DNA of 64,000 bases from Candidatus Moraniibacteriota bacterium (GTDB lineage: Bacteria > Patescibacteriota > Minisyncoccia > Moranbacterales > UBA11712), in NCBI GenBank assembly GCA_028695025.1, contig JAQVJV010000001.1, positions 21,201-85,200 on the forward strand, read 5' to 3'. A model generated the notes under the pieces. The model was given only the letters and a program-made list of their open reading frames with translations. It had not been told where the DNA came from and did no database searches. Position numbers and translations under genes: made by a program. Of the stretch, positions 18,487 through 55,559 are shown in pieces. Position 1 is the first letter of the stretch. Every line of letters starts with the position of its first letter.

Positions 18487-18524
18487 TTTCCCCCATCATA
18501 AAGGGAAGCTAAGGGAAGATTTTG
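18487..18524. repeat. GC-rich palindromic repeat element, copy A (intergenic)
   Basis: tttcccccatcataaagggaagctaagggaagatttt is about 85% identical to the element at 30322-30361 inside a CDS. Confidence 0.45.
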
Positions 18525-28045: not shown

Positions 28046-28046
28046 C

Positions 28047-28071
28047 ACCCGAACATTCAATGTTCGGGTGA
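28047..28071. terminator. Perfect palindromic hairpin between convergent folD and the flippase gene (bidirectional terminator candidate)
   Basis: cacccgaacatt-ca-aatgttcgggtg forms a 12-bp perfect stem. No strong T-run follows on the plus strand; the minus side has TTATTTGG. Confidence 0.5.
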
Positions 28072-29871: not shown

Positions 29872-30534
29872 TTAGATTGATTTTTTTATTTCTTCAAATA
29901 TTTTCTCTTTTGCGTTATCCCCGCCTAAAACGATCATATTCCAGCCACTTACTTTCGACTCATATATTTTCTCCTTTGCCGCGAGATACTCTAATCCCTG
30001 GTCCGGTTTTCGCTCGCGAGTCATGATTTTTTCGGGAGAGACTTTCACAAAAAAAGCTTGGTCGGGCTTGGGGATGAATCTTTCAGCAAACAATTCACTT
30101 GGAAACTTAGTTTCCAAGTAGCTTATATTCACCACACTGTCATAGAAATACCGGTCGCTCACGATATAATCGACGTCTTTCTTTTTCATTATGCGCTTAA
30201 ATCGAAAAATATCGATCAATAATGCAATTTTTCTCAATTGGATCTCAATCCAATTGGCTTTTATGACGCTTTTTTCAAAATCCCTCTCCATCTCTCCCTT
30301 TATAAAGGGGAGAGCGGCTGGTTTCCCCCTTTCATAAAGGGAGGCTAAGGGGGATTTTTTTCGCTTATTTAAGATTTTATTCCCAATCGAAAATTCCACT
30401 GCATGGAAATACCAAAAACTCTTCCCTTGCGATTCAAGGTATTTTTTCAGCAACTCAACTTGGGTTGATTTCCCCGAACCGTCGAGACCGGAGATGGTGA
30501 TTAGTTTTGGGTATTGACAAATTATTTTATTCAC
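29872..30534 (-). CDS. P-loop nucleoside/nucleotide kinase, thymidylate-kinase-like, carrying an in-frame palindromic-repeat insertion (GTG start)
   Basis: P-loop ISGLDGSGKSTQ (Tmk-type GxDGxGKST) and a DRY motif (VSDRYFYDS) are present. About 35 extra residues (KKSPLASLYERGKPAALPFIKGEMERDFEKSV) between the P-loop and DRY are encoded by the repeat at 30292-30361. Confidence 0.45.
   Translation of the reverse strand: MNKIICQYPKLITISGLDGSGKSTQVELLKKYLESQGKSFWYFHAVEFSIGNKILNKRKKSPLASLYERGKPAALPFIKGEMERDFEKSVIKANWIEIQLRKIALLIDIFRFKRIMKKKDVDYIVSDRYFYDSVVNISYLETKFPSELFAERFIPKPDQAFFVKVSPEKIMTRERKPDQGLEYLAAKEKIYESKVSGWNMIVLGGDNAKEKIFEEIKKSI
30292..30361. repeat. GC-rich palindromic repeat element, copy B (tandem half-copy plus full copy) inside a CDS
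   Basis: ctccccctttataaaggggagag (hairpin) ...tttccccctttcataaagggaggctaagggggattttttt. About 85% identical to 18487-18524. GC-rich against a lower-GC gene background. Confidence 0.5.
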
Positions 30535-32390: not shown

Positions 32391-33560
32391 TCACTGTTCT
32401 TTGTTCAATGAAGCATAAACGTCCTCATACTCCTTCACCACTTTCATTATATCAAAATTTTCCCGAACAAACTGCATGCCTTTTTGACCAAGCTCGCGCC
32501 GCGCTTCAGGGTTGTTGCAAAGGTATAGTATTTTTTCCTTGAGCGCTTCACGGTCGCCGGGTTCAATCAGGATGCTGTTTTCGTCGTTGAGAAAATACTG
32601 CAATCTCTCCAAATTGCTCGCGATCACCGGTTTTTCGCAAGCCATTGCCTCAATGACGGCAAGCGGGATATCGAATTTTCCAGCCATCGTCCGTGCCGGA
32701 AAAATGGAAATGTCGGCGAGATTATATATGTCCTGCATTTCGTAGCTCCCATCATCCATGAACGCCACCCGGTCAAGACATCCGGCGTTTTCCAGTCTTT
32801 GAGCCGCTTCTCGCTTCTTTTCAGCGTCTTTTTGATTCTTTACCCGAACAGCAAGATGAAGTTTGAGATTTTTATTAGCAGAAACAAGATCAACAAACGT
32901 CTCCACCACGTCATCCATATCCCCAAGCCGCACATATTCACCCGTATAGTTGATCACAAAATCATTTTCAGTGGTGTTATATTTTTTCATCAATTCCGCA
33001 TTTTTTGGAGCAGGGGAGTATTTTTCAATATCAATCCCGGGATAAATTCTTTTTATATTCTCGAAACCCATTTTTTCCAGTTTTTCTTTCGCGTAATCGG
33101 AATAGGTAACAATATGATCCGCATGGATTATTTCTTTTATTTTTTCGCTTGCATACAAATCATCCCGCAACGTTGCCAGCGTTTGGATCGTTTTGATGTT
33201 TTTATTTCGCAAACATAGCTTCAAGGCAAAAACATTCAATTTTGTCGGGGTGAAAAATGAATGCAAGATATCATAATCTTTTCCGCCTTTCAAAAAAAAT
33301 TCTTTCAGGAGAAAAATATAAGCCCGAATTTTTTGCGGCCAATTCCATTTCGGAGAAGTATATATGTCATGACAAATAACATTACTTTGGGGACTTAGTC
33401 CCCAATTGGGGGCTAAGTCCCCTTTTTCCACACACGTCAACAGATGAATCTCAAAACCGCCCGCGTGTTTGGCAAGAGTATAAGCGAAATTTTTCGATCC
33501 TTCGTCCCAAGGCGGACAAATCGGGCGGGTGAGTAATAGTATCTTCTTTTTATCGGTCAT
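32391..33560 (-). CDS. Glycosyltransferase family 4
   Basis: The C-terminal GT4 domain has FPARTMAGKFDIPLAVIEAMACEKPVIASN. The N-terminal domain contains the palindromic insert noted separately. Confidence 0.75.
   Translation of the reverse strand: MTDKKKILLLTRPICPPWDEGSKNFAYTLAKHAGGFEIHLLTCVEKGDLAPNWGLSPQSNVICHDIYTSPKWNWPQKIRAYIFLLKEFFLKGGKDYDILHSFFTPTKLNVFALKLCLRNKNIKTIQTLATLRDDLYASEKIKEIIHADHIVTYSDYAKEKLEKMGFENIKRIYPGIDIEKYSPAPKNAELMKKYNTTENDFVINYTGEYVRLGDMDDVVETFVDLVSANKNLKLHLAVRVKNQKDAEKKREAAQRLENAGCLDRVAFMDDGSYEMQDIYNLADISIFPARTMAGKFDIPLAVIEAMACEKPVIASNLERLQYFLNDENSILIEPGDREALKEKILYLCNNPEARRELGQKGMQFVRENFDIMKVVKEYEDVYASLNKEQ
33389..33422. repeat. Tandem palindromic 15-mers (ggggacttagtcccc / gggggctaagtcccc) inside the GT4 CDS
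   Basis: Direct read. The first 15-mer is a perfect palindrome. Both are GC-rich. The ggctaag core is shared with the 18487 and 30322 repeat family. They encode ...EKGDLAPNWGLSPQS... Confidence 0.45.
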
Positions 33561-46899: not shown

Positions 46900-46931
46900 G
46901 AATATTTTTGAAACTTGATAATCTTGAAAAT

Positions 46932-46963
46932 AGGGGTGAATCTTTCTCACCCCTATTTTCTTT
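46932..46963 (+). terminator. Intrinsic terminator after rplI
   Basis: aggggtga-atctttc-tcacccct followed by attttcttt. Confidence 0.6.
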
Positions 46964-52258: not shown

Positions 52259-52571
52259 GGGGATATTTTTTATTACGCCTTATCTCATCTTACTTTTCTT
52301 CGCCCGATTCCGCAAGAGGAAATTGTTTGAAAAATAAGGGAAAATTTGATAGCATAGAAAGAGAATAATCACTTATTTTAAGCAAGATGAAAGAAGAACC
52401 AACCTGCAAAACGGGAATTAAAAAGAATGTAATAAACAAAAAAACATTCGATCGCGAAATGGAATTATGTCATTTACTTTCTAAAGAAAACAAGGGCGGC
52501 TGCGGATGGGGAAAAGCGGGGATTGTGGAGTTATTCCCTTGCTTGTGAAGCTGCATGAGGGAATCCTGTTG

Positions 52572-52623
52572 GAAGATGCAAAAGATATCAAATCAGCAAG
52601 AGATAGATATTTGAAAAAAAATC
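52572..52623 (+). promoter_or_regulatory. Conserved ~50-nt leader, copy 1, immediately upstream of the CYTH gene
   Basis: ggaagatgcaaaagatatcaaatcagcaagagatagatatttgaaaaaaaatc is repeated at 55453-55505 with about 85% identity. Confidence 0.45.
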
Positions 52624-53205
52624 ATGCAAATTGAATACGAAGCCACTTTTGAAAAAATTGACAAGGACGAAATGCGCGAGCGCTTGAAAAACACGGGCGC
52701 GAAATTAGTGCGTCCCGAATTTTTATCCCGTCGAGTGACACTGAATCTCCCCTCCGGACATGAAATCCCAAACGCATGGATAAGAGTCCGGGATAACGGC
52801 CAGAAAATAACCCAGACTTTGAAAATCGTTGCTAATGGCAAAATTGATAATCAGCAAGAGTTGGAAGTCAAGGTTGATGATTTTGAAAAAACAATCGAAT
52901 TCCTCGAAAAAATCGGCTGCCTAAAGAAATCCTATCAGGAAACAAAAAGGGAGAAATGGGAATTGAACGATGTTGAAGTGACAATTGACGAATGGCCGTT
53001 TCTCGAACCTTTTGTGGAGATTGAGGGAAAAAATGAAAATGAAGTTCGAAAAATTTCAGAGAAGCTTGGATTCGACTGGAGGAAGGCCTTGTTCTGCGCC
53101 ATCGGCCATTTATATGAAAGAAAATATAGGATACCCGAAAATAAGTTTAATAATGATTTTACGAAAATAGTTTTCGAAATGGAAAATCCTTTTAAAAATT
53201 TTTAA
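52624..53205 (+). CDS. CYTH-domain protein (triphosphate-tunnel metalloenzyme / class IV adenylyl cyclase-like)
   Basis: 193 aa with an N-terminal acidic EYEATFEK motif region, then ...AWIRVRDNGQKITQTLK...ELEVKVDDFE...KKSYQETKREKWELNDVEVTIDEWPFLEPFVEIEG, following the CYTH beta-barrel pattern (RIR..G...LT.K...E.E...KxR......v.lD...lG.F.EIE). Confidence 0.5.
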   Translation: MQIEYEATFEKIDKDEMRERLKNTGAKLVRPEFLSRRVTLNLPSGHEIPNAWIRVRDNGQKITQTLKIVANGKIDNQQELEVKVDDFEKTIEFLEKIGCLKKSYQETKREKWELNDVEVTIDEWPFLEPFVEIEGKNENEVRKISEKLGFDWRKALFCAIGHLYERKYRIPENKFNNDFTKIVFEMENPFKNF

Positions 53206-55452: not shown

Positions 55453-55505
55453 GGGAGATGAGAAAGATATCAAATCAGCAAGAGATAAATATTTGGAATA
55501 AAACC
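55453..55505 (+). promoter_or_regulatory. Conserved ~50-nt leader, copy 2
   Basis: gggagatgagaaagatatcaaatcagcaagagataaatatttggaataaaacc is the second copy of the 52572-52623 leader. Confidence 0.45.
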
Positions 55506-55559
55506 ATGCGAAAAATAGTTTTCGAGATGGAAAATCCTCTTGAATCCTTAGATTCTTAA
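55506..55559 (+). pseudogene. Internally deleted remnant of the CYTH gene (17 codons: start region fused to the C-terminal end)
   Basis: atgcgaaaaatagttttcgagatggaaaatcctc... (MRKIVFEMENPLESLDS*) joins the CYTH start context to the last 13 codons or so of the full copy (...TKIVFEMENPFKNF* at 53163-53205). About 540 bp of the gene are missing. Confidence 0.55.

What the first reader, a model, noticed from the sequence alone, without database searches (positions are those of the whole stretch)
30292..30361. GC-rich palindromic repeat element inserted in-frame in a P-loop kinase gene, with a second copy intergenic (Rickettsia-palindromic-element-like behaviour)
The segment tttccccctttcataaagggaggctaagggggattttttt is preceded by a related hairpin, ctccccctttataaaggggagag. 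It is about 85% identical to tttcccccatcataaagggaagctaagggaagatttt at 18487-18524, which is intergenic after ftsX.

Within the kinase gene it encodes about 35 extra residues (…SPLASLYERGKPAALPFIKGEMERDFEKSV…) between the P-loop and the DRY motif, without breaking the frame. It has strong hairpin potential and a GC content well above the surrounding gene. Mobile palindromic elements that insert into coding sequences in-frame are known in Rickettsia (RPEs). Seeing the same behaviour here would be notable.
Basis: seen in the sequence. Interest (0 to 1): 0.6.

Follow-up and report, generated by a model that had tools for sequence, protein, structure and literature searches.

The report
In-frame palindromic repeat in CPR kinase
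An 84-base hairpin-forming repeat sits in frame inside a thymidylate-kinase-like gene of a Candidatus Moranbacteria genome, where it encodes a floppy 28-residue surface loop; it belongs to a dispersed repeat family, so Rickettsia-style "selfish DNA inside genes" also occurs in this ultra-small bacterial lineage.

Summary
Window 30278-30361 (minus strand) is an 84-nt element. It has two inverted REP-like hairpin units closed by AAATCCCCC/GGGGGATTT ends. It lies in frame in a Tmk-fold kinase gene (29872-30534) and encodes residues 59-86. AlphaFold2 predicts this stretch as a disordered loop on an otherwise confident core.

One unit recurs 4 nt after the ftsX stop codon (18488-18523; alignment score 26 versus 13.5±1.1 in shuffles). 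Most orthologues (187-200 aa) lack the insert.

- Three other metagenomic lineages carry the element at the same site, and one sister lineage keeps only half of it.
- Two orthologues carry it at a second loop, and one has copies at the 3' end.
- One related genome has a full intergenic copy.

A wider superfamily is common in metagenomes. It is mostly intergenic but sometimes in frame in unrelated genes.

Unexpectedly, several unrelated palindrome families occupy the same two kinase loops in different lineages. Neighbouring genes (GT4 here; RtcB in a relative) carry similar in-frame palindromes.

It works like RPEs or intragenic REP dimers, but it is not a member of either family. No mobilising enzyme was found. 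I found no description of this in CPR bacteria. Verdict: new member of a known kind, moderately interesting.

The parts
30278..30361 (-). Full 84-nt 'type A' palindromic element, in frame in the kinase gene. It encodes KKSPLASLYERGKPAALPFIKGEMERDF (residues 59-86).
   Evidence: The nhmmer profile of six copies gives 86.2 bits over model positions 1-84. It aligns without gaps to copies in L012, L013, L015, L017 and L141. RNA fold is -39.2 kcal/mol, z = -3.95.
30322..30361 (-). 5' REP-like unit in gene orientation: AAAAAAATCCCCC-TTAGC-CTCCCTTT-ATG-AAAGGGGG-AAA.
   Evidence: Sequence read. It is the unit that matches the solo copy at 18488-18523.
30278..30314 (-). 3' REP-like unit, roughly the reverse complement of the 5' unit: CTCTCCCCTTT-ATA-AAGGGAGAG-ATG-GAGAGGGATTT.
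   Evidence: the repeat finder I4: arms 30294-30313 and 30324-30343 are 85% complementary. About 96% of cells are paired in either the two-hairpin or the long-hairpin fold across 7 copies.
29872..30534 (-). Host gene: a Tmk-fold P-loop kinase of 220 aa with a GTG start, in an RtcB / GT4 / polysaccharide-synthesis neighbourhood.
   Evidence: Pfam PF02223 E = 1.4e-11. Foldseek top hits are all dTMP kinases, TM 0.53-0.71. 964 homologues, and the invariant P-loop and DRY residues are present. NCBI annotated only residues 82-220 (P0004).
18488..18523 (-). Solo half copy (one unit, degenerate), 4 nt after the ftsX stop codon. A canonical terminator hairpin and a tRNA gene follow it.
   Evidence: nhmmer model positions 4-39, E = 0.019. 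Smith-Waterman score 26 versus a shuffle maximum of 17. Context.
30097..30119 (.). Perfect 11-bp hairpin ACTTGGAAACTTAGTTTCCAAGT in the second variable loop of the same kinase (encodes YLETKFPS). In other lineages this loop carries type A, type B or GTAGACGTC-type palindromes.
   Evidence: A near-identical hairpin, differing in one loop base, is in L140. Loop-free ('empty') versions are in L162 and L163.
33387..33422 (.). A different palindrome (TTGGGGACTTAGTCCCCAATTGGGGGCTAAGTCCCC), in frame in the GT4 glycosyltransferase gene 32391-33560(-). It encodes GDLAPNWGLSPQ.
   Evidence: Orthologues L012 and L140 lack 8 residues here. L013 and L139 carry other sequences at the same loop; the L013 one is a perfect palindrome.
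28046..28070 (.). Intergenic 12-bp hairpin CACCCGAACATTCAATGTTCGGGTG. It is a singlet of the AACATTCAATGTT hairpin family, which occurs as inverted doublets next to tmk in relatives.
   Evidence: window. (doublets at L012 10656-10703, L015 5839-5883, L140 8492-8540, L013 17691-17735).

Best explanation
The feature is a copy of a small non-autonomous palindromic repeat element.

**Architecture.** It has two REP-like hairpin units in inverted orientation, separated by about 10 nt and closed by the terminal inverted repeats AAATCCCCC/GGGGGATTT. This is a REPIN-like or MITE-like layout.

**History (inferred from comparison).**
- The element entered a surface loop of a Tmk-fold kinase gene in an ancestor of one Moranbacteria subclade.
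- It is 84 nt long and free of stop codons in the host frame, so the gene stayed open.
- The element is presumably translated as a 28-residue disordered loop that the enzyme tolerates.

**Family behaviour.**
- The family also has intergenic copies and solo units, such as the one after ftsX.
- It has entered a second loop of the same gene at least once.
- It decays in place by in-frame loss of one unit.

**Shown versus inferred.**
- Shown: repeat-family membership, lineage-specific presence, loop location (predicted), and hairpin potential.
- Inferred only: the mobilising activity. By analogy it would be a hairpin-recognising HUH/Y1 transposase such as a RAYT acting on single-stranded DNA, or hairpin-targeted recombination. 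No such gene was seen.
For: **Repeat family at several loci.**
- Six tmk copies and one intergenic copy align gap-free over 84 nt, with mean column identity 86% over the 92-nt aligned stretch.
- A solo unit follows ftsX in the window.
- The same element sits at a second tmk loop in L013 and L017. In L017 a unit also supplies the last 5 codons and the stop codon of tmk.

**Lineage-specific presence.**
- Most of 964 homologues are 187-200 aa without it.
- Site-1 carriers cluster in one clade of a neighbour-joining tree.
- Relative L162 has an empty site. L163 retains only the 5' unit after an in-frame 45-nt loss.

**Tolerated insert.**
- The ORF is intact and the catalytic motifs are conserved.
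- In the AlphaFold2 model most 10-residue blocks of the core average pLDDT above 90, while residues 60-90 are below 50 with almost no secondary structure.

**Constraint at the DNA level rather than the peptide level.** Third-codon-position identity is 0.79-0.96 in the element against 0.47-0.60 in the rest of the gene.

**Wider superfamily.**
- More than 120 metagenome contigs carry it, mostly in intergenic or spurious short ORFs.
- Some copies are in frame inside a molybdopterin oxidoreductase, a UDP-GlcNAc 2-epimerase, a glutamate synthase and a beta-helix protein.
- The element is open in 2-5 of its 6 reading frames. Those frames give exactly the peptides seen in the spurious ORFs.
Against: - No transposase or RAYT was found among 20 hypothetical ORFs of the window. 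The rest of the genome could not be searched.
- No target-site duplication could be defined. Empty and filled sites differ by more than a simple insertion.
- Copy number in hand is low: 1.5 copies in 64 kb, and none in five of nine relatives' loci (three of them about 20 kb).
- Site-1 copies look vertically inherited from a single event, so recent mobility is not demonstrated.
- The two site-2 copies share identical junctions. They could reflect one event spread by recombination.
- Covariation in the stems is not significant with only 7 copies.
- Translation of the insert is not demonstrated.
Confidence: 0.78

Rival explanations
1. The hairpin is kept because it does something for the host. 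It could be a structured element in the DNA or mRNA, such as a pause or attenuator, an RNase barrier, or a recombination or supercoiling site. On this view its peptide is a by-product. This is compatible with a mobile origin; it would be a domesticated element.
For: - The element is far better conserved at synonymous positions than the surrounding gene: 0.79-0.96 against 0.47-0.60.
- 9 of 10 orthologous loci have some strong hairpin at loop 1 and 7 of 10 at loop 2, from unrelated sequence families.
- The terminator scan flags the loop-2 hairpin on both strands and a third hairpin in tmk on the plus strand.
Against: - Hairpin-free versions of both loops exist in apparently intact orthologues (L162, L163).
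- The hairpins differ completely in sequence, size (21-132 nt) and family, so no single structure is conserved.
- Similar palindromes also sit in loops of GT4 and RtcB and within PriA and TopA ORFs, which fits opportunistic insertion better than gene-specific regulation.
- No Rfam family matches: best 22.5 bits against a gathering score of 49.5.
Confidence: 0.12
2. The palindromes arose in place, with no transposition. Replication template-switching would have 'perfected' chance inverted repeats in relaxed loop regions (quasi-palindrome correction).
For: - The small perfect hairpins in loop 2 (23 nt) and in GT4 are short enough for this mechanism.
- Perfect-stem hairpins are 8-fold enriched in the window: 13 against 1.6 expected.
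Against: - It cannot explain the same 84-nt sequence at two different loops, at the 3' end of tmk, in an intergenic region of another genome and after ftsX.
- It also cannot explain the GTAGACGTC hairpin appearing at loop 1 in some lineages and at loop 2 in others.
Confidence: 0.05
3. The kinase gene is damaged, as a pseudogene or a split gene. Either translation starts after the insert, as NCBI annotated (M82), or the insert is not translated.
For: - The NCBI record calls only a 139-aa product starting at M82 (P0004).
- Pfam matches to insert-bearing orthologues are marked weak or faint.
Against: - The 220-codon frame is open from a GTG whose N-terminus (MNKI.CQY..LIT.SG) is shared with homologues P0075 and P0036.
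- A product starting at M82 would lack the P-loop.
- Four diverged lineages keep the whole frame open across the element, and all family-invariant residues are present.
- The model folds confidently around the insert.
Confidence: 0.04
4. The similarity is due to chance or to an assembly artefact.
For: The genome-wide scan with the exact 18-mer returned only single hits in unrelated organisms.
Against: - The alignment score is about 11 sd above shuffles.
- The element was recovered from independent assemblies in JGI, ENA and NCBI.
Confidence: 0.01

Closest known systems
Rickettsia palindromic elements (RPEs; Ogata et al. 2000, as summarised in PMC10969869 and PMC3733652)
   Same: - Both are hairpin-forming dispersed repeats inserted in frame into housekeeping genes of a reduced-genome bacterium.
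- Both encode an extra peptide segment compatible with the protein fold.
- Both families also have intergenic copies.
   Different: - The phylum differs: Patescibacteria/CPR rather than Alphaproteobacteria.
- This element is 84 nt against about 150 bp for the RPEs first reported.
- It is built of two REP-like units.
- Sequence relatedness to RPE families was not tested.
- The fraction of copies inside genes is unknown here. The wider superfamily is mostly intergenic.
REP / REPIN elements and intragenic REP dimers (GTAG- and CGTC-tagged REPs; Di Nocera et al. 2013, PMC3733652)
   Same: - The units are 20-40 nt imperfect palindromes.
- Inverted doublets fold into a longer hairpin, and singlets lie just after stop codons.
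- Clusters occur (L119).
- Intragenic dimers encoding 20-30 residues, sometimes twice in one ORF, are reported for Opitutus terrae, Thauera and R. conorii.
   Different: - The type A unit has no conserved GTAG or CGTC tag. The positions before the stem read TTAGC, TCAAT, TTAGT, TTAAT or TTGAT.
- No RAYT gene was seen.
- Copy number in the available sequence is low.
Bacterial MITEs with intragenic in-frame copies (ERIC/RU elements, Correia, QMITE1; PMC2759123, PMC10969869, PMC3184786)
   Same: - Small size, terminal inverted repeats and no coding capacity for a transposase.
- Open reading frames run through the element, allowing in-frame fusions and new C-termini, as in L017.
   Different: - No target-site duplication was identified.
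- No parental insertion sequence with matching ends was identified.
- The internal structure is two hairpins rather than a deleted insertion sequence.
Palindromic coding repeats of Methanocaldococcus jannaschii (recalled from memory: Suyama et al. 2005; not checked here)
   Same: Palindromic repeats with coding potential found inside ORFs.
   Different: Archaeal and unrelated in sequence. This is a lead from memory only.

Membership tests
Rickettsia palindromic elements (RPE) | Dispersed repeat with palindromic (hairpin) structure | tested here: met
   Seven aligned copies at five kinds of locus. RNA fold z = -3.95. About 96% of cells paired.
Rickettsia palindromic elements (RPE) | Inserted in frame in ORFs that stay open and keep conserved residues | tested here: met
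   The 220-codon ORF is open, and orthologues show the same at two sites. Superfamily copies lie in frame in four unrelated Pfam-verified genes.
Rickettsia palindromic elements (RPE) | Insert lies at the protein surface without disturbing the fold | tested here: met
   In the AlphaFold2 model residues 60-90 have pLDDT below 50 and are almost entirely unstructured, while most 10-residue blocks of the core average above 90. This is a prediction only.
Rickettsia palindromic elements (RPE) | Sequence homology to RPE-1 to RPE-10; occurrence in Rickettsia | not tested
   No RPE consensus was compared. The host is Candidatus Moranbacteria by the NCBI name of P0004. I therefore treat this as an analogue, not a member.
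REP / REPIN (RAYT-mobilised) | 20-40 nt imperfect palindrome units; inverted doublets forming a long hairpin; singlets also present | tested here: met
   Two units of about 37 nt with a roughly 10-nt spacer. Singlets at window 18488-18523, L017 1608-1699 and L163 10150-10187.
REP / REPIN (RAYT-mobilised) | Conserved GTAG (or CGTC) tetranucleotide at one end of the unit | tested here: not met
   Alignment A7 shows variable TTAGC/TCAAT/TTAGT/TTAAT/TTGAT before the stem. A different small hairpin in relatives (TGTAGACGTCCGACGTCTACA) does carry GTAG and CGTC.
REP / REPIN (RAYT-mobilised) | Cognate RAYT (Y1 HUH transposase) gene in the genome, flanked by the repeats | tested here: inconclusive
   No Y1_Tnp hit among 20 hypothetical ORFs of the window. 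The other roughly 40 ORFs were judged only by their first 50 residues. The rest of the genome is not available.
REP / REPIN (RAYT-mobilised) | High copy number, predominantly extragenic and near gene 3' ends | tested here: inconclusive
   The superfamily is mostly extragenic. Only 1.5 copies were found in this 64-kb window, and none in five of nine related loci (three of them about 20 kb).
MITE | Terminal inverted repeats, small size, no transposase ORF | tested here: met
   AAATCCCCC ... GGGGGATTT ends pair in 7 of 7 copies. Length is 84 nt.
MITE | Target-site duplication flanking the element | tested here: inconclusive
   Flanks compared. The A-run on the left and T-run on the right are complementary rather than direct repeats. 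The empty site in L162 differs by about 15 nt of unrelated loop sequence.
MITE | Related autonomous insertion sequence with the same ends | not tested
   No insertion sequence was seen in any fetched locus. No dedicated search was possible.

The most novel reading that the evidence does not exclude
In Moranbacteria-type CPR genomes, particular surface loops of conserved genes may act as landing pads. The genes include the Tmk-like kinase, GT4 and RtcB, with single cases seen in PriA and TopA. Several unrelated families of palindromic elements colonise these loops again and again, and one hairpin replaces another at the same nucleotide position. This would imply a hairpin-targeted insertion or recombination mechanism rather than random insertion filtered by selection. 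It would also be a steady source of lineage-specific disordered protein segments in these minimal genomes.
Probability: 0.3. Interest if true: 0.7.

Novelty: new member of a known kind. Interest (0 to 1): 0.52.

Why it matters
**Biology.** Selfish palindromic DNA living inside essential genes is best known from Rickettsia, and a few REP-rich bacteria also show it. This finding shows the same thing in the Candidate Phyla Radiation, whose roughly 1-Mb genomes are usually described as streamlined.

**Practical consequences.**
- The element broke gene calling. NCBI annotated only the C-terminal 139 residues of this kinase.
- It weakens Pfam matches in the orthologues that carry it.
- Across metagenomes the superfamily generates large numbers of spurious 'hypothetical proteins', with peptides such as KSPSIPLFQRGK, KIPLNPPFSKGE and SPFEKGGLRGIF.

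**A comparative system.** The same two loops of one small enzyme carry five or more different palindrome families across lineages. Empty, full and half-deleted states are all sampled. This gives an unusually clean system for asking how such elements choose their sites and how they decay in frame.

Tried and rejected
- **Genome-contig scan with the exact 18-mer.** It gave 11 single hits in unrelated taxa, which is chance level.
- **Peptide-profile searches.** I hoped they would list other host proteins. They returned almost only short spurious ORFs. The word-index search did not even recover the known Tmk carriers, so it is uninformative about long hosts. A first attempt failed because the query was under 40 aa.
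- **Covariation analysis.** Seven copies are too similar. It cannot distinguish the two-hairpin fold from the long-hairpin fold, and it does not reach significance.
- **Rfam.** Only three tRNAs were found, and nothing for the element.
- **Type A-specific pattern in IMG/VR.** No hits.
- **Third hairpin in tmk (30235-30256, inside the conserved ANWIEIQL motif).** It is only partly present in orthologues. The self-complementary codons of N-W...Q-L explain it, so I do not count it as an element.
- **'Every orthologue has a hairpin at both loops'.** I considered this and rejected it after L162 and L163 showed empty loops.
- **DNA for P0036.** It could not be fetched.
- **Literature searches.** Combining CPR/Patescibacteria with palindromic elements, REPIN or RAYT found nothing relevant. 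One search was malformed.

Full report
**1. The observation**

The segment lies on the antisense strand of an intact 220-codon ORF, 29872-30534(-).

- The ORF matches Pfam Thymidylate_kin (E = 1.4e-11).
- Its AlphaFold2 model has dTMP kinases as all its top PDB matches (TM 0.53-0.71).
- NCBI names an identical partial product as coming from a Candidatus Moranbacteria MAG (P0004).

The proposed second copy is real.
- Local alignment of 30322-30361 against the rest of the window picks 18487-18523 with score 26. Shuffles gave 13.5 ± 1.1, maximum 17, and 0 of 200 reached 26.
- An 18-nt degenerate motif occurs exactly twice against 0.06 expected.
- The second copy begins 4 nt after the stop of an FtsX-domain ORF. 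A standard terminator hairpin and a tRNA gene follow it.

**2. Anatomy**

I compared the window with orthologous genes fetched from independent JGI, ENA and NCBI assemblies. The unit of homology is 84 nt, window 30278-30361 on the minus strand:

AAAAAAATCCCCC-TNRNY-(Y)CCCCTTT-loop-AAAGGGGG-AARCCNGNC-CTCYCCCTTT-loop-AAAGGGRGAG-NNNG-GAGRGGGATTT

- It consists of two REP-like hairpin units, the second roughly the reverse complement of the first. A spacer of about 10 nt separates them, and the ends AAATCCCCC/GGGGGATTT pair with each other.
- As RNA it folds at -39.2 kcal/mol (z = -3.95). As DNA, z = -3.2.
- About 96% of cells are paired across seven copies in either the cruciform-like or the long-hairpin fold. 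There is too little variation for covariation to be significant.
- The hairpin loops differ between copies (ATG, TTC, GCG, TCC and ATA, CGA, GAA, CAA), whereas the stems are kept.
- GC is 0.48, against 0.39 for the gene and 0.45 for the window. 'GC-rich' is therefore only relative.

**3. Is it an insertion?**

Yes.

- Of 964 homologues, the typical length is 187-200 aa.
- In a 30-sequence alignment only P0001, P0002 and P0003 share the 28-residue segment at this position. P0007 and P0054 carry shorter related segments.
- In a neighbour-joining tree of the insert-masked alignment these sequences form one clade together with the window. Loop 1 was therefore probably invaded once, long ago.
- The relative nearest the window in that tree (L162, P0033) has an empty, hairpin-free site: AAGAAAAAAAGAAATAGTGGAGTCGAAAAA.
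- L163 (P0054), sister to L012, keeps only the 5' unit. A 45-nt in-frame deletion has removed the other unit. This shows how solo units such as the one after ftsX can arise.

**4. Is it a repeat family with mobility?**

- The same 84 nt sit at a second loop of the kinase, after the motif VVNI.YL, in L013 (P0032) and L017 (P0001). These belong to different clades. Their shared junctions (CAAAGA | element | TTRTT) leave open whether this was one event spread by recombination or two events.
- In L017 a further right-hand unit supplies the last five codons and the stop of tmk, and a left-hand unit follows 37 nt later.
- A full copy (80.9 bits, not used to build the profile) lies in an intergenic region next to topA and dprA on an NCBI contig with the same GC content (L141).
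- Within the window there are only the full copy and the half copy.
- Five of the nine related loci (three of them about 20 kb) have none. Copy number per genome is therefore probably modest.

**5. A wider superfamily**

It also hit 20 IMG/VR contigs.
- Most copies lie in short spurious ORFs. Some are clustered in tandem (L119).
- The element is open in 2-5 of its six frames. Those frames give exactly the peptides seen in thousands of 'hypothetical proteins': KSPSIPLFQRGK, KIPLNPPFSKGE, NPPQSPFFKGG, SPFEKGGLRGIF and FPLxQRGIKGDF.
- Four copies are internal and in frame in Pfam-verified genes: a molybdopterin oxidoreductase, a UDP-GlcNAc 2-epimerase, a glutamate synthase and a beta-helix/T9SS protein.

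**6. Effect on the protein**

- The AlphaFold2 model has mean pLDDT 84. Most 10-residue blocks of the core average above 90.
- Residues 60-90 are below 50 with almost no secondary structure. They lie between helices 50-57 and 95-118.
- All residues invariant in the family, including the P-loop and DRY, are present.
- The most economical reading is a tolerated, disordered surface loop.
- NCBI's pipeline started the gene at M82, just after the element, which would delete the P-loop. This looks like a gene-calling artefact caused by the element.

**7. Selection acts on the DNA**

Between site-1 carriers, third-codon-position identity is 0.79-0.96 inside the element and 0.47-0.60 in the rest of the gene. 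Overall nucleotide identity is 0.79-0.95 against 0.69-0.76. Three explanations remain open: the hairpin sequence itself is constrained, copies are homogenised from other genomic copies, or the copies are younger than the tree suggests. I could not separate these.

**8. The unexpected part**

The two kinase loops are occupied by different palindromes in different lineages.

- Loop 1 carries one of:
  - type A;
  - TGTAGACGTCCGACGTCTACA (L138, L140);
  - a 20-bp perfect GATCCGACCCCTAA hairpin (L013);
  - a weaker hairpin in L139;
  - nothing (L162).
- Loop 2 carries one of:
  - ACTTGGAAACTAAGTTTCCAAGT (window 30097-30119, differing in one loop base; L140; degenerate in L139);
  - the GTAGACGTC-type hairpin (L012, L015);
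  - type A (L013, L017);
  - a roughly 100-nt 'type B' element encoding SCHSERSEAKSRNL...VGMT (L138 and eight other proteins);
  - nothing (L162, L163).

The neighbouring genes behave the same way.
- The window's GT4 gene carries an in-frame palindrome at 33387-33422 that L012 and L140 lack. L013 and L139 carry other sequences at that loop; the L013 one is a perfect palindrome.
- RtcB has a lineage-specific palindromic insert in a relative. Perfect palindromes also lie in frame within the PriA and TopA ORFs of relatives.
- Perfect hairpins with stems of at least 9 bp number 13 in the window against 1.6 in shuffles. In relatives' loci they number 4-17 against 0.3-1.4.

**9. Mechanism**

- Shown: this is a dispersed palindromic repeat. 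It is present or absent in a lineage-specific way, sits in predicted surface loops, keeps the frame, and decays by in-frame unit loss.
- Inferred: it is or was mobilised in trans. The doublet/singlet architecture and the position after stop codons resemble REP/REPIN elements, which RAYT tyrosine transposases move on single-stranded hairpins (PMC3733652).
- Against membership:
  - the type A unit lacks the GTAG/CGTC tag;
  - no transposase was found among 20 hypothetical ORFs of the window;
  - no target duplication could be defined.
- A host function for the hairpin is not excluded (rival 1). The existence of empty loops and the diversity of hairpin families argue against a gene-specific role.

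**10. Comparison and novelty**

- In-frame palindromic inserts are established for Rickettsia RPEs.
- They are also established for REP dimers in Opitutus terrae, Thauera and others, including dimers encoding 20-30 residues and double insertions in one ORF (PMC3733652).
- Intragenic ERIC-type MITEs are a further case (PMC2759123, PMC10969869).
- I found nothing on such elements in CPR/Patescibacteria in the held library, and no Rfam family matches.

I therefore class this as a new member of a known kind. The recurrent occupation of identical loops by several families is the part that could be new biology (probability about 0.3).

**Verdict.** Interest is moderate (0.52).

Noticed in passing
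window 33387-33422 (GT4 gene 32391-33560, minus strand): A second, unrelated palindrome (TTGGGGACTTAGTCCCCAATTGGGGGCTAAGTCCCC) lies in frame in a glycosyltransferase and encodes GDLAPNWGLSPQ. Orthologues L012 and L140 lack 8 residues there. L013 and L139 carry other sequences at the same loop; the L013 one is a perfect palindrome. A similar CCCCAATTGGGG-centred palindrome lies in PriA of L138 (16303-16334).
   Followed up: partly
window 30097-30119: A perfect 11-bp hairpin lies in the second variable loop of the kinase (YLETKFPS). It is identical in L140 apart from one loop base, although the two proteins are only about 67% identical. Relatives have other palindrome families, or nothing, at this loop.
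   Followed up: partly
window 28046-28070; L012 10656-10703; L015 5839-5883 and 1746-1790; L140 8492-8540; L013 17691-17735 and 6201-6245: Another hairpin family (CCTAACATTCAATGTTAGG). In relatives it mostly occurs as inverted doublets that form 45-nt perfect palindromes, often immediately after tmk. The window has a single unit between two convergent genes.
   Followed up: partly
L138 10332-10432 (tmk loop 2); L138 12334-12352; L034 (wecB-like ORF); proteins P0035, P0036, P0043, P0072, P0075, P0101, P0104, P0108, P0113: A roughly 100-nt 'type B' element encodes SCHSERSEAKSRNL...DPST...VGMT. It lies in frame in loop 2 of many kinase orthologues scattered over the tree. A related peptide (MSCHPEHSEGSEILRPYSPQNDK) lies next to a superfamily unit inside a UDP-GlcNAc 2-epimerase ORF.
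   Followed up: partly
window 29872-30534 versus NCBI protein P0004: The public annotation of this gene starts at M82, directly after the element, giving a 139-aa 'hypothetical protein' without the P-loop. The element appears to have misled the gene caller.
   Followed up: yes
L119 6790-7834 and 1461-1830; protein P0225 (439 aa): Superfamily units occur in dense tandem clusters with about 45-nt spacing, reminiscent of BIMEs. They also occur in longer repeats with a period of about 270 nt that are read through as long spurious ORFs.
   Followed up: no
L142-L161 (IMG/VR contigs): The 5'-unit pattern of the superfamily occurs in 20 contigs classed as viral. The type A-specific pattern occurs in none.
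   Followed up: no
window 46926-46960: A 14-bp perfect hairpin (GAAAATAGGGGTGA-7 nt-TCACCCCTATTTTC) lies between a short ORF and what looks like the true start (MRPKYIFVVGG...) of a CTP-synthase-like ORF. It could be a terminator or another repeat element.
   Followed up: no
window 52571-52630 / 55453-55512 and 53164-53196 / 55512-55544: Two direct repeats, 87-91% identical and about 2.3-2.9 kb apart, flank the region of a CYTH-domain ORF and two ORFs without Pfam matches. This may be a local duplication.
   Followed up: no
L012 10404-10422, L015 5583-5605, L138 10139-10159, L140 8054-8078: The small hairpin (T)GTAGACGTC-C/G-GACGTCTAC(A) carries both the GTAG and CGTC tetranucleotides that define the two REP superfamilies. 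It appears at kinase loop 1 in some lineages and at loop 2 in others.
   Followed up: partly
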